64,000 nt of DNA from sequence record MK562505; one strand, 5' to 3'. Made by a program: the position numbers and the translations under genes. Origin of the DNA: Shigella phage Silverhawkium. Of this stretch, positions 1-27,485 are shown piece after piece. The stretch's first letter is position 1, and the number at the start of each line of letters is the position of its first letter. The notes below the pieces were generated by a model. It had not been told where the DNA came from. It saw only the letters and a list, made by a program, of their open reading frames with translations, and searched no databases.

Positions 1-2422
1 CATTGCACCTGATTTATGGAACTTTGATAATCCAAAGTGTAAACCTTGGGGTGATTTCTTCCAAGACTCACTTATTCAGTCTCGCGTTCAGTGGATGGAT
101 AGGCCAACACCAAAAGGCTACAAAGGTGCTCACGGATTGGCTGCGTGGGGTGCTCGTGTTGGTGTTCGTAAACCTGAGATTGAAGAGTGGGGTGTATGGA
201 ATGCAGAAATCCTTAACCGTGTTGTTGAAGATATCCGCATTAACGCCAAAGCAAAAAGGGCTATGGATAATGAGTATCTAAAACTGAAGAAGTGTGGTGT
301 TGATACTTATGAAACATACATGAGAGCCAAGGAAACATCTTTTTGGATGAGTCAGCAAGCAATCAATGGTTGGAAAGCTGATATCAACAAAATGAAAAGT
401 TGTATCAAAGAGTTGGATAAGATGACTTCTGACTTAGCTTCTGAGGTAGAACCATTCTTACCACCAACTATCAAAACAAAAGGTAAAGTTACTGGTGAAG
501 AATTTGCCAAGTCATGGAATGAGTACGTAGAGACATTTGGTGGTGCAGATGGTTTGAAGAGAATCACAAAGTACCCTAAGACAAAATATCGTCAGCAGGT
601 TCGTAATGGTGAGATGCAAAGTTACCCTATCAAGCCATATGGAAAACCAACTACAAAGATTTTCAGCATTGAAAAAAGAAATTGCTACACTCCAACTAAC
701 ACCGTTACTGGAGAAGAGTACAAAGAAGGTTTTGTAGCGATGAAAGATGCTCGTGCAGTTTGCAATGAGTTAAATGCTAAAGTGGATAAGAAGTGCAAAG
801 ATTGGAAGCCAGTTAAGACGGTGAAGATTGTGAAGTACTACAACAACCATGTAGTTAATCACTTTGGTCTTGAATCAAGTCGATACACAGGGTTGATTGA
901 TGCACCGTATACACCTATTGAGTTTGAAGTGTCACGAATGACTCAGGTGGCTGTTGTTAAGGATTACTTGAAGACTTTAGGTTGGATTCCTGATGATTGG
1001 AATTACAAGAAGGATTCAGATGGTCGTCCTGTGAAAGTTTGTCGATTCAAAGACAATAAGAAAATGATTCGCAAGCACCCAAAATGGGATGAAATGGTTG
1101 AGCGTTGTGGATTGAACTATGTTGAGCACGAAGGTATTCAGTACATTGAGCATAACTGGTCTGTCAAAAAGTACACAGACTTGCTTGAGCCTTGCTTGAT
1201 TCGTACTTCACCAAAACTGACTGAATCATCTTATGACACCATTGAAGGTGAACTTGGACAGAAGATTGCGAAGTACTATACTTTGATGCACCGACGTAGA
1301 ACTATTGAGAACTCAAAAGATGATGAAAAGGGCTGGTTGAACCAGATTCGTCCAGATGGTCGTTTGAGTGCTGGTGCAATGGTGTTTGGTACATCTACTG
1401 GACGTATGACGCAGTATGGTATTGTAAACGTACCTTCTGGTGCTGCCGTTTATGGGGAACCAATGAGGGCAGTTTGGATTTGTGAAGAAGGGACAAACGT
1501 AGTCTCTGTAGATATGAACTCTGCACAGCTTGTTCTTCTTTGTAACTTTATGGGTGATAAGGATTTCACAAAGGCTGTAACTGAAGGTAAAGAAGAGATT
1601 GAGTTTGTTCGTCAAGAAGATGGTCGTTACTATTGCAAACACTTTGATGAATACTTGAACCCTGAAGTTGACAAGTATCTTCGTTATGACCATGAAAATG
1701 ACCTGTATGTAGTTTACTCAGGTACTGATGCTCATACACTGAACAGTATCTACTTTAGTTTGAATGATGAGCAGGATATCTTGACTTGTCGTATGACTCA
1801 GGATGAAAATCTTCTTCACGAAATTAGTAAGGGTCGTAAGAAAGCTAAGAATGGTATCTATGCACTGTTGTTCGGTGCAGGTGATGAAAAGTTTGCTAAG
1901 ACCATTAAAGCAGCTACCACTCAGGAAGGTGCATTAACTAAACAGACTTACTTTGTGCGTTTGCCGAAGATTAAGAAACTGTTAGACAACTTAGAAGCCG
2001 ACTTTAAAGCTACTAAGAAAGCACTGGAAGAGGTGTTTGGTAAAACTGCTGCTATCGCTAAAGGTGGTTTTGTTAAGGTTGCTGGTGCTTGGTTGTGGTG
2101 TAAATCTCCACATAAACTTTTGAACTATCTGTTGATGGGTTCAGAAGCACAAGTACAGAATGAAGCAATCAACCTTGCTTGTCGTCGTATGATTGATGAA
2201 GGGTTAATGAAACTGAATGGTCGTAAACCAGCTATTGGTGCTCGCCTACTCTGTGCTTACCACGATGAAACAAGCTGGGAATGTCCAGAGAGCATGACAG
2301 CAGAAGTCAAAGCAGTAACTGACTGGTACTACGGGCAAGCTTCTAAGAACTTAGGTCTTAAAAAAGATACCCTTGTAACTGGTGCTGGTAAGGTTGGTAA
2401 AAGCTGGCTGGAAGTTCACTAA
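1..2422 (+). CDS. DNA polymerase, family A (Pol I-like), 5'-partial; reading frame is open to the window edge
   Basis: Motif A-like DMNSAQLVLL, motif B-like RKKAKNGIYALLFGAG, motif C-like YHDETSWE; frame continues upstream of first ATG at 95. Confidence 0.85.
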   Translation, partial: IAPDLWNFDNPKCKPWGDFFQDSLIQSRVQWMDRPTPKGYKGAHGLAAWGARVGVRKPEIEEWGVWNAEILNRVVEDIRINAKAKRAMDNEYLKLKKCGVDTYETYMRAKETSFWMSQQAINGWKADINKMKSCIKELDKMTSDLASEVEPFLPPTIKTKGKVTGEEFAKSWNEYVETFGGADGLKRITKYPKTKYRQQVRNGEMQSYPIKPYGKPTTKIFSIEKRNCYTPTNTVTGEEYKEGFVAMKDARAVCNELNAKVDKKCKDWKPVKTVKIVKYYNNHVVNHFGLESSRYTGLIDAPYTPIEFEVSRMTQVAVVKDYLKTLGWIPDDWNYKKDSDGRPVKVCRFKDNKKMIRKHPKWDEMVERCGLNYVEHEGIQYIEHNWSVKKYTDLLEPCLIRTSPKLTESSYDTIEGELGQKIAKYYTLMHRRRTIENSKDDEKGWLNQIRPDGRLSAGAMVFGTSTGRMTQYGIVNVPSGAAVYGEPMRAVWICEEGTNVVSVDMNSAQLVLLCNFMGDKDFTKAVTEGKEEIEFVRQEDGRYYCKHFDEYLNPEVDKYLRYDHENDLYVVYSGTDAHTLNSIYFSLNDEQDILTCRMTQDENLLHEISKGRKKAKNGIYALLFGAGDEKFAKTIKAATTQEGALTKQTYFVRLPKIKKLLDNLEADFKATKKALEEVFGKTAAIAKGGFVKVAGAWLWCKSPHKLLNYLLMGSEAQVQNEAINLACRRMIDEGLMKLNGRKPAIGARLLCAYHDETSWECPESMTAEVKAVTDWYYGQASKNLGLKKDTLVTGAGKVGKSWLEVH

Positions 2423-20808: not shown

Positions 20809-20809
<1 letters not shown>

Positions 20810-23025
20810 TATTCATCCTCTGGGTAGCTAGAGTTTAACAAAATATCTTCCTGATTCTTATCAGTGATATCAACCATCTTAGTAGCAATCTGCTTACCAT
20901 CCAGATTAAACGAGACATTAAGAGTTTGCTTAGTTTGCATTGGGAATCCAGAAGGTGTCATCATCATAGGTGTCTGGTTAAACTTAGTTGCAAAGTTGTT
21001 TAGAGACTCAGACAGGTTATTCATAATAATATCCCAATTCGACAAACCATTATCAACTCTCTGAATATTTCCAGAGGCATCTGTGGTATATTGTGCAAAC
21101 TGGAGTTGTCCATTCTGGTCAAAGAACATAGGGCGTTTAGCATTGGTAATCCCAGCAGTAGCTTCGTTGAAAGGATTTGGTGTATTAACATCACTAAACC
21201 TCTTTCCAGCATTAGGGTCAGAAGACCTAGATAGTGCCATTGTTGCCAAGGCTACCTTTACTTGAGGTGGCATTAAAAATGGAGATGCTCTTGGTGCAAC
21301 TTTCTCAGCCACCTCAATGCCAAATCTCTGAAGAATCTTTCGTACAATTGCTGTATCAAAGAATCCAGTGATAAGCTTCGCCACTTTAGCAACGGTTGCT
21401 ACAGCACCACCAATAGCAACAACCGTTGCAAGGAACTCTGAAGCTTCTTTCACTAACTTCTGCTGTCCAGCATCCATTTCCTTGTAATAACCCATTGCTG
21501 TGTAGTACAATGAAGAAATGCGGTACATAATATCTGTCACGAAGTCTAGAAAGTTACTAGCACCTTTCAAAAGGTAACCAATACCAGTACCAAGAGCTTC
21601 AGAAGTACCTAAAGAGCCTTGCAAGAACATTGCAACTGAGTTAGATAGCTGTGAAATACCATCACTAGAGTTATTAAACAGGGCTACCAGAGTGTTATCC
21701 CACATAGCCTTTGCCTGACCCATAGATGTTGCTGTCTGCTTGGAAACGGCATTCATACCACCTGCTGCATCCACCAACTCTCTCATTTTCTCAGAGACTT
21801 TTGGAAGAACATCTTTAGCAAGCAACTTACCGTCTTGCATCAACTTATCAAGCTCCTGTGGAGTCTTGCCAATAGCATCAGAGAATAACTGAACAGCACC
21901 TGCTAAACGGTCACCTAACTGACCACGAAGTTCTTCAGCCTGAATCTTACCTTTAGATGCCATCTGTTGGAAAGCAACCATGATACCTTTCAAGTCTTCA
22001 TCAGATGCCCCTCTAATACGAGAGAACATTGCAGCATTTTTATAGAACTCTTGAGTACCCTGAAAACCTAGTGTTGGTTGAGCACCAGCAGCAAAGTTTG
22101 AGTACTGTTTCATAGTGTCTGTATAGTTCTGACCAATCTGGTGAGCGAACGTTGCAGCGAACATTCTAGCTTGCTGTGTATCTCCACCAAAAATAGCTGT
22201 GGAAGCTAATTGTGCAGACTGTCTTTTAATACCAGCATCAATTGTCTTTTGAGCTAATTCAATCATAGCATATGCAGATACAAATCCACCGATTAACTGT
22301 CTCAGTGATGAGTTTGCTCTATCCTGTAGCCATGCTGATTCTTTGACTGCCTTAAGTCTAGCATTTTCTGCAATAACCCAACGTTTGGTTGTGTCAATGA
22401 GCTTTTTAACTTCCATCTCATATTCACCAACCTTTCCACTCCCTTTATACTTGTTATAGATGCCTTGTAAGTTTCCTCTAAAGGAAGCAGCCATTTGGTT
22501 TCCTTGTCCACCAATTGTTTCAAGACGACGAGTTAACCCAGAATAGAAGTTGTTATTAAACATCCTTTCCATCTGTCTCTGAGCAATATCCGGTCTTACT
22601 CTTGGTGAACCACCACTACCACCTGTTGGTGGAATATTATTACCACGGCCTTTACCAGTTCCACCACGAATATTAACTTTACCTTCAACATTCATAGCTT
22701 GTCTTAAAACCTTGTTAATTTCTTTGGCTGTTTTCTTACCTTGTGTCTCTAATTTACGGAGAGACTTAACACCTTGAGAATCCAAGTTTAGGGCGTTATT
22801 TAGGGATTTATTGATTCTGCCCGAAGCAGTCTGAGCGTTTTTAACAAGTCTGTTTAAAGCTTCTTGAGAACTTTTATTAGGCTTCACATCAAAAGCTTTG
22901 TTAATATTTCTTTCAATACGTTGAGCGGATTGCATAGCCATCTTTTCAACTCTTTGTAAGCCTTTAACTACTTTTTCACTGAATCCAAGTTCAACAATAA
23001 AACTATCAACTGTATACTGTGCCAT
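20809..23025 (-). CDS. tail tape measure protein
   Basis: 738 aa, Ala/Gln/Lys-rich helical with Gly-rich segment [20 protein letters not shown]; follows chaperone pair. Confidence 0.65.
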
Positions 23026-23252
23026 TAAATTTTACCTGCCTTTCTAAGTTCGTTGTAGGCCATTTCTTCTTTGTATGACTTTTGAATTTCAAGGTATTGA
23101 CGAAGAGATAATAGGTCAACGAAAGTCATTGAGAAAAGTTGGTCAAGTGTTTCTTTACACCCTTCCATACCATAAATGGCAAGCACAAATTTCATCTCAT
23201 CTGCTTCTTCATAAGTTGCTTCTACAGCCCCGTCAGTCAGCGGGGTCTGCAT
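23025..23252 (-). CDS. tail assembly chaperone (distal part)
   Basis: Small acidic ORF between chaperone and tape measure. Confidence 0.4.
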   Translation of the reverse strand: MQTPLTDGAVEATYEEADEMKFVLAIYGMEGCKETLDQLFSMTFVDLLSLRQYLEIQKSYKEEMAYNELRKAGKI

Positions 23253-23260
23253 AGCATATC

Positions 23261-23668
23261 TTAAGCTTCCTGAGAAGTTAGGCTTTTGAAAATGCTTGCC
23301 TCGAAAAAACTTCCGAAGTTTGCCTCCAAAGCAAATGCCAAGAAGTCAATAAACTCACCATAGTTTGCTTGGAAGTAACTATCAATTTTTAGTGGGAAAT
23401 CATCTACCGTTGCTCCCTGAAAAAGCAACTCTGCCATTGAGTCAAGATTTAACTCATCAATTTTATCAAAGCAAGCTTCCACAAGTTCTTTGAAAGGAAC
23501 TTTAGGAGCATCAGCATTTCCATCTTTTCCAGCAAGACTTGTCATCATCTGAGCAAATGTTGGAACAACTACTTTACCAAGCTTCATAGAAATCTTGATA
23601 CCTTCTCTTGCACCAAGAAGAATGATTGTTACCTTCTTGCCGTTAATAATTTTAGTTTCTGTTTTCAT
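23261..23668 (-). CDS. tail assembly chaperone
   Basis: 135 aa ORF between tube and tape measure genes. Confidence 0.45.
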   Translation of the reverse strand: MKTETKIINGKKVTIILLGAREGIKISMKLGKVVVPTFAQMMTSLAGKDGNADAPKVPFKELVEACFDKIDELNLDSMAELLFQGATVDDFPLKIDSYFQANYGEFIDFLAFALEANFGSFFEASIFKSLTSQEA

Positions 23669-23745
23669 TGTGATTCCTTAAATTTTGGTGGTATAAAAAC
23701 ACAAAAGGGGAAGACCTTTTACAGTCTCCCCCTTATTAGGATATT

Positions 23746-24192
23746 TTAAACACTTGACGCAGGAATTGTTGAAGTGTAGTCTAGCTTCTCACAACCGAAA
23801 ATCCAAGTTTTGGAGTTCTGGTCACGACCTAGTTCAATCTGTGGCAGTTCTTGCAACCAAGCATTAATACCTGTTGCTAAGACTGAACCAGATGGGTCGT
23901 AAATAACGAAGTTAGAAGAGATATCTTCTTCAAGTTCCATATCATCTTGTTTAGCTTGAATTGCAGAAAGCATCTGATTAGAGAGTGAAGTTTGCATTAA
24001 CTCAATCTCAATAGTACCTGTCTTATCTGCGTTTCTTGTCAGAGCTACTTGACCACCTGCACCTACAACTGGCGTAACAAGTGGAGAAGTTCTCTGAAGA
24101 CGTAAGAATGAATCTGGGGCAAAGCCTTCAATGGCAATACCATTCCAGCTACAAACTACATCTTTAGGGGAATATTGCTGATACATAGCCAT
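23746..24192 (-). CDS. tail tube protein
   Basis: 148 aa, directly downstream of sheath gene. Confidence 0.55.
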   Translation of the reverse strand: MAMYQQYSPKDVVCSWNGIAIEGFAPDSFLRLQRTSPLVTPVVGAGGQVALTRNADKTGTIEIELMQTSLSNQMLSAIQAKQDDMELEEDISSNFVIYDPSGSVLATGINAWLQELPQIELGRDQNSKTWIFGCEKLDYTSTIPASSV

Positions 24193-24207: not shown

Positions 24208-25560
24208 TTATTCGTAAGCCACTGTGCCTTTCAAGTCAACATCCAAGATAGCCCCTGCAAGAATACCGTGGAAGGTAATATCTTTCAGAATACGTGCTTT
24301 CTTATCTGCCAATGATACTTGTGAGGCTTTAGGAACAGTAACGGTATAAGTAGACAAAAAGTTTCTGTTAACTGCTCTCTGAAGAGATGTTTCAATGACC
24401 TGACGAATACGGGTAATACCAGTATCATCATAAGTAATCTTACCACCCTTCTGATTAATTAGCAAGTCTCTCAGAGAAGTTTTCAAATCAGATTCTAACC
24501 AGTCAACACCACGAATGATATCAATCCATTCTCCACCAGAAGTGATACCTCTACGCACAACTGGAACGCCACCATCAAGGTCAACGAAGTTACAGCTACG
24601 TGCATCAAGAGCAGACTTCTGAATGCTTGTCAGAGGTCTCTGATTAGCTGGCTGCAAAGATGCTTCCACACCAGTTAACTGAGCGTTACCCCAAGCAATT
24701 GAACCTGCATCATATGGAGCACCATATGCAATGTAAGCCATTTCTGGATAGTCAAACTGTGCAGTGTGATGCCATAGGCAAACTGTACGAGTGTATTTGC
24801 TCTTAGCAAGTTGTGCTGGTACGTCTGTAGCAGACTCTAGCTCAGTTCCTTGCAGGGCTTTCACATCAGCGTTAGCTGTGAAGAAAATCTTCTTACGAGC
24901 TTGAATCTCTGAAGCCATTGCCAATACAAACTGTGAAGTTCTATCTTCCGTGGCAATGAAATACCAATCAGTTGAATATGCTTCGATAGAGGCCAATGCA
25001 GTCGATGCTGTGTCGGCAGTCGTTGCAGCTACTGAAACTGTCTGTGTAGTTGTGGTAACTTTTACGAAGTCATTGTCACCAGCTTTTGTGATAATCATCG
25101 TTGCTGAAGAACCTGAACCAGTTACGCTAACAGATACACCCTCACTAATTGATGGCTGTGCTTCAATCTGTGTTTTGAACTCTCCAAGAACAATTTCAGC
25201 AGTGTCGTCAGCTTTAGCTGTATACTGGAATGGCTGAGAAATACCACCACCAATAGCAACTGTCAGTGAATATTCTTTACTTTCTTCAACTGTGTCTGGG
25301 ATTGAAACTGTATACTGCATAGTACGTCTACCAATATACAACTGAGTTACTTTTGGAGTTTGACTCCATAGCTGTTTAGCAGCTTTATACGCAGCAGTAT
25401 CTTCATCAAAGTCTTCGGCTACTTCAGATAGGGAAGTGTAACCACGAACTCTCTCTTCAAAGTTATCAGTTGAAGCGAGGAACAATGGTAAACCAAACCC
25501 TTCTCTCGTAGTCCCTGCTGTGTTCAATGTAATATCTACATTAACAATTGGATTCCACAT
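24208..25560 (-). CDS. contractile tail sheath protein
   Basis: 450 aa, position preceding tube gene. Confidence 0.6.
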   Translation of the reverse strand: MWNPIVNVDITLNTAGTTREGFGLPLFLASTDNFEERVRGYTSLSEVAEDFDEDTAAYKAAKQLWSQTPKVTQLYIGRRTMQYTVSIPDTVEESKEYSLTVAIGGGISQPFQYTAKADDTAEIVLGEFKTQIEAQPSISEGVSVSVTGSGSSATMIITKAGDNDFVKVTTTTQTVSVAATTADTASTALASIEAYSTDWYFIATEDRTSQFVLAMASEIQARKKIFFTANADVKALQGTELESATDVPAQLAKSKYTRTVCLWHHTAQFDYPEMAYIAYGAPYDAGSIAWGNAQLTGVEASLQPANQRPLTSIQKSALDARSCNFVDLDGGVPVVRRGITSGGEWIDIIRGVDWLESDLKTSLRDLLINQKGGKITYDDTGITRIRQVIETSLQRAVNRNFLSTYTVTVPKASQVSLADKKARILKDITFHGILAGAILDVDLKGTVAYE

Positions 25561-27464: not shown

Positions 27465-27485
27465 TTATAACCCTCCTTATCTGAA

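What the first reader, a model, noticed from the sequence alone, without database searches (positions are those of the whole stretch)
23025..23668. Tail chaperone pair upstream of the tape measure gene: possible programmed frameshift
Two small ORFs sit between the tube and tape-measure genes, the position where long-tailed phages usually make a fused chaperone by -1 frameshifting. Here the ORFs are separated by 8 nt, so a conventional slippery-site fusion is not obvious and would need readthrough or an unusual shift.
Basis: inference. Interest (0 to 1): 0.25.

Follow-up and report, generated by a model that had tools for sequence, protein, structure and literature searches.

The report
Ordinary tail-chaperone −1 frameshift site

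Summary
On the minus strand, ORF1 (23668..23261, 135 aa) and ORF2 (23252..23025, 75 aa) lie between the tail tube and tape-measure genes, 8 nt apart.

No readthrough or unusual shift is needed.
- ORF2 is in the -1 frame of ORF1, and that frame is open for 31 codons upstream of the ORF2 ATG.
- A shift there gives a 214-aa fusion (122 aa of ORF1 plus 92 aa).

Comparative evidence:
- The heptamer is invariant in 39/39 related loci, down to 44% protein identity.
- Synonymous variation in ORF1 drops sharply from the heptamer to the stop codon.
- The -1-frame peptide is homologous from the slip site onward in every clade.
- The most distant clades have no start codon for ORF2.

GenBank records for phages Michonne and Moogle annotate this slippage. 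Papers from 2015, 2017 and 2025 describe it.

Verdict: already known, low interest. No protein-level evidence for the fusion in this clade was found. Minor leads are an upstream GGAGG that could stimulate the shift and a hairpin over the ORF2 AUG.

The parts
23746..24192 (-). Tail tube protein gene (148 aa), the upstream neighbour
   Evidence: PDB 9mt4_P 'Tube protein' E=1.5e-95 and 9c39_G gp40 E=3e-96. Pfam KPP10_Orf10 and phrog_280.
23695..23734 (-). Terminator-like hairpin plus T-tract between the tube gene and ORF1. It probably lowers transcription into the chaperone and tape-measure genes.
   Evidence: A 12-pair stem followed by TTGTGTTTTT. The homologous site is annotated as a terminator in phage Michonne. 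The attenuating role is inferred.
23261..23668 (-). ORF1, the short chaperone isoform (TAC-N; analogous to lambda gpG and P2 gpE), 135 aa
   Evidence: Pfam PF21822 Phage_TAC_15 E=1.5e-19, 71.2 bits against a cutoff of 22. phrog_1613 E=4e-48.
23323..23327 (-). GGAGG, a Shine-Dalgarno-like pentamer 13 nt 5' of the heptamer. Candidate upstream stimulator of the shift, as in dnaX.
   Evidence: The anti-SD duplex is -9.3 kcal/mol with a 12-13 nt spacer. It is one of only two GGAGG on the coding strand in 9 kb; the other is a real RBS. It is kept in the enteric clades and in Arno162, but is absent from the Erwinia clade and L036. Any stimulatory function is inferred.
23303..23309 (-). Slippery heptamer T_TTT_TTC, in phase with ORF1 (codons Ser120-Phe121-Phe122 = AGT TTT TTC). 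This is the -1 shift site.
   Evidence: Invariant in 39/39 loci and 24 distinct junction sequences. It is the same site as 'ribosomal slippage (47149)' in Michonne KT001916.
23025..23303 (-). -1-frame coding part of the fusion: 92 codons starting by re-reading C23303, then a stop at 23027..23025. Together with 23668..23303 (122 codons) it encodes the 214-aa long isoform (TAC-NC).
   Evidence: The -1 frame is open from 23345. The fusion was built and aligned across clades, and the peptide RSKHFQKP... is homologous from the slip site onward. Synonymous variation falls from 0.16-0.35 to 0.05-0.09 over ORF1 codons 118-135.
23288..23291 (-). Second in-phase shift-prone tetramer, U_UU.C, inside the overlap. 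Possible minor alternative shift site.
   Evidence: Tetramer hierarchy from Sharma 2014 (PMC4066793). Absent in Arno162. Use of this site is inferred.
23025..23252 (-). ORF2 as called by ORF finders (75 aa). It is the C-terminal ('T'-like) domain of the fusion.
   Evidence: phrog_4963 E=1.5e-51. It has its own ATG but only a weak, distant SD: GGAAG 13 nt upstream, -4.3 kcal/mol.
23217..23256 (-). Hairpin that base-pairs the ORF2 AUG (23252..23250)
   Evidence: MFE fold; the 88-nt region has z=-2.56. Nine consensus pairs, two of them with compensatory changes, in 13 enteric-clade sequences. The hairpin starts 46 nt after the heptamer, too far away to be a classical stimulator. Its role is inferred.
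20809..23025 (-). Tape measure protein gene (738 aa), the downstream neighbour. Its ATG overlaps the ORF2/fusion stop by 1 nt (TAATG).
   Evidence: Pfam TMP_3 E=3.8e-17; phrog_4036 at 1418 bits.

Best explanation
This is the tail-assembly-chaperone locus of a Felix O1-like (Ounavirinae, near Mooglevirus) myophage, and it is decoded by a conventional programmed -1 ribosomal frameshift. Most ribosomes translate ORF1 to its UAA and make the 135-aa short chaperone. A minority slip back one base on T_TTT_TTC (23309..23303), with tRNA-Phe re-pairing UUU/UUC to UUU/UUU. They continue in the -1 frame through the 8-nt 'gap' and all of ORF2, producing a 214-aa fusion (ORF1 residues 1-122 plus 92 residues). 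By analogy with lambda G/GT and P2 E/E+E', the shared N-terminal domain coats the tape-measure protein and the C-terminal domain recruits the tube protein. The frameshift sets the ratio of short to long isoform. Shown here: the frame geometry, the heptamer, its conservation, the suppression of synonymous change, and the homology of the -1-frame peptide. Inferred: that slippage actually occurs, its efficiency, and the protein functions.
For: - ORF2 is in the -1 frame of ORF1. That frame is open for 31 codons upstream of the ORF2 ATG, and an in-phase T_TTT_TTC lies inside the overlap.
- The heptamer is present, in phase and inside the -1-open overlap in 39/39 loci (24 distinct junction sequences). 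These include Erwinia Kolesnikvirus, Pectobacterium Arno162 and L036, at 44-48% ORF1 identity.
- blastn against the Erwinia phages finds only a 41-nt island, window 23320..23280, covering the heptamer and the following ~23 nt.
- Synonymous differences are 0.16-0.35 along ORF1. That includes codons 108-117, where the -1 frame is already open. They drop to 0.05-0.09 from codon 118 to the stop. This is the pattern expected if the -1 frame is translated only from the heptamer onward.
- The -1-frame peptide RSKHFQKP[NV][FY]... aligns from the slip site in all clades. In the distant clades the first ATG falls 37-57 residues into the conserved domain. In phiEa104/L038 and L036 no GTG or TTG start precedes it; Arno162 has a GTG without a Shine-Dalgarno at codon 24. 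One Felixounavirus contig has ATG changed to ATA.
- GenBank records Michonne KT001916 and Moogle KM236239 carry a joined CDS, and Michonne's note gives 'ribosomal slippage' at this same heptamer.
- The frameshift is described in PMC4319497, PMC5543628 and PMC12846349.
- H_HH.U_UU.Y heptamers are among the most efficient in E. coli (PMC4066793).
- P2 uses the near-identical TTTTTTG (PMC3091744).
Against: - Nothing found here shows the fusion protein directly in this phage or its clade. All published statements are annotation-level.
- Taken alone, the heptamer in one sequence is not significant. An in-phase XXXYYYZ appears in 21% of codon shuffles, and in 44% of synonymous redraws of the Ser-Phe-Phe peptide.
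- No conserved RNA structure follows the heptamer: z = -0.46, +0.78, -0.50 and -1.91 in four clades, and there is no Rfam hit.
- In the enteric clades ORF2 has its own ATG 2-8 nt after the ORF1 stop, so a free ORF2 product cannot be excluded.
- The locus sample is dominated by close relatives; only about four lineages are deeply independent.
Confidence: 0.88

Rival explanations
1. There is no frameshift. ORF1 and ORF2 are two separate proteins, and ORF2 is started at its own AUG, for example by termination-reinitiation coupling to ORF1 (8 nt apart here, 2 nt in Felixounavirus).
For: An ATG lies 2-14 nt after the ORF1 stop in all but one enteric-clade locus. A weak GGAAG sits 13 nt upstream. 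Many GenBank records annotate two separate genes.
Against: The distant clades have no ATG start for the conserved domain until 37-57 residues after the slip site, yet they keep the frame open and the peptide homologous from the heptamer. L021 has lost the ATG. The AUG is buried in a hairpin. This rival does not explain the invariant heptamer or the drop in synonymous variation that starts at it. It could still operate in addition to the frameshift in the enteric clades.
Confidence: 0.05
2. The fusion is made by transcriptional slippage. RNA polymerase adds one extra U on the T6 run, giving an mRNA subpopulation that is already in the fused frame.
For: A run of six T is present at 23309..23304, and a +1-nt insertion would yield the same fusion frame (sequence).
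Against: From general knowledge, known bacterial transcriptional realignment sites use longer runs, typically 8-9 or more A/T. What is conserved here is the phased heptamer including the 3' C and the 5' AGT, not run length. P2 (TTTTTTG) and lambda use ribosomal slippage (PMC3091744, PMC5009743).
Confidence: 0.04
3. One reading: stop-codon readthrough of the ORF1 UAA, or an unusual shift (+1 or hop) across the 8-nt gap, fuses the ORFs.
For: None beyond the adjacency of the two ORFs.
Against: Readthrough of the UAA gives DMLCRPR and then a UGA, and ORF2 is not in the 0 frame. The +1 frame after the site closes after 7 codons. A canonical -1 site exists, so nothing unusual is needed.
Confidence: 0.01
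4. The -1 shift occurs mainly at the second in-phase motif, the U_UU.C tetramer at 23291..23288, and not at the heptamer. This would give a fusion whose linker reads ...SFFEASIF-QKPNF....
For: U_UU.C is the second most shift-prone tetramer in E. coli (PMC4066793). It lies in the overlap and is conserved in most clades.
Against: Tetramers reach about 10-fold lower maximal frameshifting than the best heptamers (PMC4066793). Arno162 lacks the tetramer but keeps the heptamer. Synonymous suppression begins at the heptamer, not at the tetramer.
Confidence: 0.05

Closest known systems
[quoted passage not shown]
   Same: Orthologous locus: 82% ORF1 protein identity and 89% DNA identity over the wider 1.4-kb locus. 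It has the identical heptamer and flanks, and the same 8-nt stop-to-ATG spacing. The annotated slippage coordinate falls inside the same TTTTTTC.
   Different: Only sequence-level divergence. ORF1 is 135 aa here and 133 aa there, and the linker has a 3-nt indel. The nearest record (Shigella phage ESh22, 91.6%) annotates two separate hypothetical proteins.
Conserved GTTTTT -1 PRF signal in TAC-N genes of Vandenendeviridae and 231 Andersonviridae phages (Pseudomonas phage Adele paper, PMC12846349)
   Same: Same gene position, same TAC-N/TAC-NC logic and the same G-TTTTT motif near the 3' end of TAC-N. The downstream 'gene' is in fact a fragment of the long isoform. The window has AGT TTT TTC.
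   Different: That paper is comparative only. It does not report the upstream GGAGG or the hairpin over the ORF2 AUG.
Bacteriophage P2 gpE / gpE+E' (myophage; -1 shift at TTTTTTG)
   Same: Contractile-tail phage; the locus lies between the tube and tape-measure genes; U6-type heptamer; -1 shift near the end of the short ORF; no downstream RNA structure (PMC3091744).
   Different: No detectable sequence homology was tested or claimed. P2 has E at 91 aa and E+E' at 142 aa, against 135 and 214 aa here. The last base is G in P2 and C here. E' has no start codon of its own, whereas ORF2 here carries an ATG.
Phage lambda gpG / gpGT (G_GGA_AAG, about 30:1 ratio)
   Same: Same architecture and presumed function: the shared N-domain binds the tape measure, the frameshift-encoded domain binds the major tail protein, and neither product is in the virion (PMC5009743).
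   Different: Lambda is a siphophage with a different heptamer and a different Pfam family. The functional parallels here are inferred, not tested.
E. coli dnaX-type -1 frameshift with an upstream Shine-Dalgarno stimulator
   Same: GGAGG lies 12-13 nt 5' of the heptamer, inside the 6-17 nt window used by Sharma et al. for stimulatory SD-like elements.
   Different: dnaX also has a strong 3' hairpin, which is absent here. The SD-like element is absent from the Erwinia clade and L036, so it is not a defining part of the signal.

Membership tests
Tailed-phage tail assembly chaperone with programmed frameshift (G/GT type; Xu, Hendrix and Duda 2004) | The locus lies between the major tail/tube gene and the tape measure gene | tested here: met
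   Tube 24192..23746 (PDB 9mt4_P, E=1.5e-95). Tape measure 23025..20809 (TMP_3 and phrog_4036).
Tailed-phage tail assembly chaperone with programmed frameshift (G/GT type; Xu, Hendrix and Duda 2004) | The downstream ORF is in the -1 frame of the upstream ORF, and that frame stays open across the end of the upstream ORF | tested here: met
   Offset 416 nt = 2 mod 3. The -1 frame is open from 23345 to 23028, an 82-nt overlap. The same holds in 39/39 loci.
Tailed-phage tail assembly chaperone with programmed frameshift (G/GT type; Xu, Hendrix and Duda 2004) | An in-phase slippery sequence (X_XXY_YYZ) lies within the overlap | tested here: met
   T_TTT_TTC at 23309..23303. This heptamer class is efficient in E. 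coli (PMC4066793).
Tailed-phage tail assembly chaperone with programmed frameshift (G/GT type; Xu, Hendrix and Duda 2004) | The slip site and the open -1 frame are conserved among diverged relatives | tested here: met
   Invariant in 24 distinct junction sequences down to 44% identity. Synonymous variation is suppressed from the site onward. The -1-frame peptide is homologous from the site onward.
Tailed-phage tail assembly chaperone with programmed frameshift (G/GT type; Xu, Hendrix and Duda 2004) | The downstream segment has no independent translation start | tested here: inconclusive
   The window has an ATG with a weak, distant SD, buried in a hairpin. The Erwinia, L036 and Arno162 clades have no ATG start before the middle of the conserved domain, and L021 has ATA.
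Tailed-phage tail assembly chaperone with programmed frameshift (G/GT type; Xu, Hendrix and Duda 2004) | Short and long isoforms are both made at a fixed ratio, both are needed for tail assembly, and both are absent from virions | not testable with these tools
   Needs protein detection and genetics. No experimental report for this clade was found.
Pfam PF21822 Phage_TAC_15 | ORF1 scores above the curated gathering threshold | tested here: met
   71.2 bits against a cutoff of 22, E=1.5e-19, residues 9-125 on profile positions 1-124 of 127.
dnaX-like SD-stimulated -1 frameshift | An SD-like element 6-17 nt upstream of the motif, conserved across the family | tested here: inconclusive
   GGAGG is present 12-13 nt upstream in the window, Moogle, Felixounavirus and Arno162, and is weakened to GGAGA in Suspvirus. 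It is absent from the Erwinia clade and L036.
dnaX-like SD-stimulated -1 frameshift | A stable stem-loop 5-9 nt downstream of the motif | tested here: not met
   The 60 nt after the heptamer fold no better than shuffles in the window, the Felixounavirus and the Erwinia representatives; Arno162 has z=-1.91. The only local stem is 4 bp with a 14-nt loop.
Stop-codon readthrough fusion | The downstream ORF is in frame with the upstream ORF past its stop | tested here: not met
   The 0 frame after the UAA reads DMLCRPR and then stops; ORF2 is in the -1 frame.

The most novel reading that the evidence does not exclude
In the enteric Ounavirinae the frameshift may not rely on the heptamer alone. An upstream Shine-Dalgarno-like GGAGG (23327..23323), held in place by constrained synonymous codon choice, could stimulate it as in dnaX. 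A covarying hairpin hides the ORF2 AUG. Decoding would then be tuned between three possible products: the short isoform, the fusion, and perhaps a free C-domain made by reinitiation. That would be a small mechanistic refinement of a known system, not a new kind of system.
Probability: 0.3. Interest if true: 0.25.

Novelty: already known. Interest (0 to 1): 0.1.

Why it matters
The main value is for annotation. Many database records for this phage group list the second ORF as a separate hypothetical gene, as a truncated 37-aa 'chaperone' (phiEa104 gp060), or under a wrong name ('head closure protein'). The correct product is a roughly 214-aa frameshift fusion. The conserved site is another well-supported example of the near-universal tail-chaperone frameshift, here in contractile-tail phages that are used for Salmonella and E. 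coli typing and therapy. It opens no new question.

Tried and rejected
- Downstream stimulatory structure. I folded 60-146 nt after the heptamer in four clades and ran an Rfam scan. There was nothing significant or conserved next to the site.
- Single-sequence significance of the heptamer. It is not significant on its own (p about 0.2-0.4), so the argument rests on conservation.
- The other in-phase heptamer, T_TTC_CCA at 23399..23393. It lies upstream of the -1-frame stop at 23348..23346, so a shift there terminates at once.
- Readthrough and +1 shift. Both are excluded by stop codons.
- Non-ATG starts for ORF2 in the distant clades. Only an SD-less GTG in Arno162 precedes the conserved domain, and there is none in phiEa104/L038 or L036.
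- PDB sequence search with ORF1. No solved relative was found.
- Not done: structure prediction of the fusion, and a search of the large protein database with the fusion sequence. The annotated GenBank fusions already answer that question.
- One script timed out and one literature query was rejected for syntax. Both were re-run.
Full report
**Observation**

All genes in this part of the window are on the minus strand. The order is:

| Feature | Coordinates | Size |
|---|---|---|
| Sheath | 25560..24208 | 450 aa |
| Tube | 24192..23746 | 148 aa |
| ORF1 | 23668..23261 | 135 aa |
| Spacer GATATGCT | 23260..23253 | 8 nt |
| ORF2 | 23252..23025 | 75 aa |
| Tape measure | 23025..20809 | 738 aa |

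- The tube assignment is now firm. The protein matches solved chains named 'Tube protein' (9mt4_P, E=1.5e-95) and gp40 (9c39_G).
- ORF1 is a member of Pfam Phage_TAC_15 (71.2 bits against a cutoff of 22) and of phrog_1613.
- ORF2 matches phrog_4963 'tail assembly chaperone' (E=1.5e-51).
- The downstream gene matches TMP_3 and phrog_4036.

ORF2 starts 416 nt after the ORF1 start, so it is in the -1 frame of ORF1. That frame is not limited to the called ORF2. It is open from 23345, just after a TGA at 23348..23346. This is 31 codons upstream of the ORF2 ATG and overlaps the last 82 nt of ORF1.

Inside this overlap, in the correct phase (X_XXY_YYZ), lies T_TTT_TTC at 23309..23303, corresponding to codons AGT TTT TTC = Ser120-Phe121-Phe122.

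The 8-nt gap therefore has no bearing on whether a fusion can be made. A ribosome that slips -1 on the heptamer reads CGA GGC AAG CAT TTT CAA AAG CCT ... through the ORF1 stop region, the 'gap' and ORF2. The product is 214 aa: 122 residues from ORF1 plus 92 more.

Readthrough of the UAA gives DMLCRPR and then a stop, and the +1 frame closes after 7 codons. The 'unusual' routes are therefore excluded.

**Is it more than chance?**

In one sequence, no. An in-phase XXXYYYZ appears in the last 82 nt in 21% of codon shuffles of ORF1. It appears in 44% of synonymous redraws that keep the Ser-Phe-Phe peptide. The case rests on comparison with relatives.

**Comparative evidence**

The window is an Ounavirinae (Felix O1-like) phage. 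The best match is Shigella phage ESh22, a Mooglevirus, at 91.6% identity, and 262 phage records match by megablast. I analysed 38 related loci plus the window: 7 from GenBank and 31 from IMG/VR.

- **Heptamer.** All 39 have T_TTT_TTC in phase and inside a -1-open overlap, with the -1 frame continuing 65-80 codons past the ORF1 stop. The one 65-codon case (L010) is cut short by the end of its contig. There are 24 distinct junction sequences. They include Erwinia phage phiEa104 (Kolesnikvirus), Pectobacterium phage Arno162 and contig L036, whose ORF1 proteins are only 44-48% identical to the window's.
- **DNA island.** At that distance blastn finds nothing in the Erwinia phages except a 41-nt island, window 23320..23280. 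This covers the heptamer and the 23 nt after it, at 90% identity.
- **Codon choice.** Local codon usage gives about 0.27 per lineage for keeping any heptamer on Ser-Phe-Phe, and about 0.026 for the exact codons AGT-TTT-TTC. AGT is only 10% of Ser codons. Three further saturated lineages would then keep them by chance at about 0.02 and about 2e-5 respectively. These are rough figures of my own.
- **Synonymous sites.** Among 35 distinct ORF1 sequences, the fraction of same-residue pairs that use different codons is 0.16-0.35 in every 9-codon window along ORF1. That includes codons 109-117 (0.25), where the -1 frame is already open. The fraction falls to 0.05 for codons 118-126 and 0.09 for codons 127-135. 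Extra constraint therefore begins at the heptamer and not where the frame opens. This is what translation of the -1 frame from the slip site predicts.
- **Linker peptide.** The -1-frame peptide aligns from the slip site in all clades (RSKHFQKP[NV][FY]..., then the ORF2 domain with a conserved CK[ED][ST] motif and an S[YL][KR]EE motif).
- **Start codons.** In phiEa104/L038, L036 and Arno162 the first ATG in that frame is 57, 37 and 45 residues after the slip site, well inside the conserved domain. In phiEa104/L038 and L036 no GTG or TTG precedes it either; Arno162 has a GTG without a Shine-Dalgarno at codon 24. One Felixounavirus contig (L021) has ATA where its relatives have the ORF2 ATG. So the ORF2 domain cannot be made whole by independent initiation in those phages.

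**Stimulators**

- **Downstream.** The 60 nt after the heptamer fold no better than shuffled sequence: z = -0.46 (window), +0.78 (Felixounavirus), -0.50 (Erwinia clade) and -1.91 (Arno162). No Rfam family matches. The only local stem is 4 bp with a 14-nt loop. This matches P2, where no structure follows TTTTTTG (PMC3091744).
- **Upstream.** A GGAGG at 23327..23323 lies 12-13 nt 5' of the heptamer, with an anti-SD duplex of -9.3 kcal/mol. GGAGG occurs only twice on the coding strand of the 9-kb structural block, and the other copy is a genuine ribosome-binding site. There are 19 on that strand in the whole 64 kb. The chance of one landing in the 6-17 nt window used by Sharma et al. (PMC4066793) is about 0.004 by my rough estimate.
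- **How the GGAGG is kept.** It depends on a Leu codon ending in G (TTG or CTG) plus Glu GAG, which have local usage of 34% and 29%. These are kept in the Moogle, Felixouna and Arno162 lineages. The element is weakened to GGAGA in Suspvirus and absent from the Erwinia clade and L036. It is a plausible lineage-specific enhancer, not a defining part of the signal.
- **Heptamer class.** H_HH.U_UU.Y heptamers are among the most efficient in E. coli, and U_UU.U_UU.C shifts above 0.1% without any stimulator (PMC4066793).

**ORF2's own start**

In the window the ORF2 AUG has only a GGAAG 13 nt upstream (-4.3 kcal/mol). It is also paired inside a hairpin (23256..23217). Thirteen distinct enteric-clade sequences share a 9-pair consensus for this hairpin, and two of the pairs show compensatory changes (C-G to A-U, and A-U to G-C).

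The hairpin starts 46 nt after the heptamer, which is too far for a classical frameshift stimulator. It may suppress independent initiation, or make initiation depend on ribosomes terminating ORF1. A free ORF2 product in the enteric clades cannot be excluded, but the conserved route is the fusion.

**Prior knowledge**

- GenBank records Michonne (KT001916) and Moogle (KM236239) carry a two-piece joined CDS, 'tape-measure chaperone'. The Michonne note reads 'ribosomal slippage (47149)'. That coordinate maps into the same TTTTTTC, and the flanks are identical to the window.
- The Mijalis announcement says the same and cites Xu et al. 2004 (PMC5543628).
- A 2025 study of Pseudomonas phage Adele aligned the chaperone region of 231 Andersonviridae phages. 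[quoted passage not shown]
- The functional model (N-domain on the tape measure, frameshift domain recruiting the tube, ratio set by shift efficiency) comes from lambda G/GT (PMC5009743). It is inferred here, not tested.

**Verdict**

- It is already known for this phage group at the annotation and comparative level. I found no protein-level demonstration of the fusion for this clade.
- Interest is low.
- The upstream GGAGG, the invariant AGT, the second U_UU.C tetramer (23291..23288) and the hairpin over the ORF2 AUG are small details that a reporter assay could resolve.

Noticed in passing
window 23323..23327 (minus strand): GGAGG lies 12-13 nt upstream of the slippery heptamer. It is one of only two GGAGG on the coding strand in the 9-kb structural block; the other is a real RBS at 27476. 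Constrained synonymous codons (Leu NNG, Glu GAG) keep it in the enteric clades and Arno162, but it is absent from Erwinia phages and L036. It could be a dnaX-like upstream stimulator.
   Followed up: partly
window 23217..23256 (minus strand): A stable hairpin base-pairs the ORF2 AUG. Thirteen distinct enteric-clade sequences share a 9-pair consensus, and two pairs show compensatory changes. The hairpin is not recognisable in the Erwinia or Pectobacterium clades. It might block or gate independent initiation of ORF2.
   Followed up: partly
window 23310..23312 (Ser120 codon AGT); all 39 loci: The Ser codon before the T-run is always AGT, although AGT is only about 10% of Ser codons locally and TCT would preserve the heptamer equally well. 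This matches the 'GTTTTT' motif reported in PMC12846349 and suggests a constraint from the 5' context (E-site).
   Followed up: partly
L021 (IMGVR_UViG_3300045988_004167), junction about 1899..1910: This Felixounavirus contig has ATA where all its relatives have the ORF2 ATG. It is either a natural loss of the independent start or a sequencing error. The heptamer and the open -1 frame are intact.
   Followed up: no
window 23695..23734 (minus strand): A strong terminator-like hairpin (12 pairs plus a T-tract) lies between the tube gene and the chaperone gene, and is annotated as a terminator in Michonne. It probably lowers expression of the chaperones and tape measure relative to the sheath and tube.
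   Followed up: partly
window 23023..23027 (minus strand): The tape-measure ATG overlaps the stop of ORF2/the fusion by one base (TAATG). Tape-measure translation may therefore be coupled to ribosomes finishing the -1 frame or ORF2.
   Followed up: no
L004 (phiEa104 NC_015292) 1089..1202; L003 (ESh22); L006 (RPN213); hits H38, H53: Database annotations of this locus are inconsistent. RefSeq phiEa104 gp060 is a 37-aa fragment called from an internal ATG. ESh22, RPN213 and mistaenkt list two separate genes. VpaE1_ev035 and C600M2 label the ORF1 homologue 'head closure protein'.
   Followed up: partly
hit H55 (MG065664.1): A record named 'Campylobacter phage A132' (host Campylobacter jejuni) is 80.6% identical over the whole chaperone locus to this enterobacterial Felix O1-like group. 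One record has an organism name beginning 'Staphylococcus'. These are likely mislabelled or contaminated records.
   Followed up: no
window 23288..23291 (minus strand): A second in-phase shift-prone tetramer, U_UU.C, lies 12 nt downstream of the heptamer within the overlap. It is conserved in all clades except Arno162 and could contribute a minor second fusion species with a different linker.
   Followed up: partly
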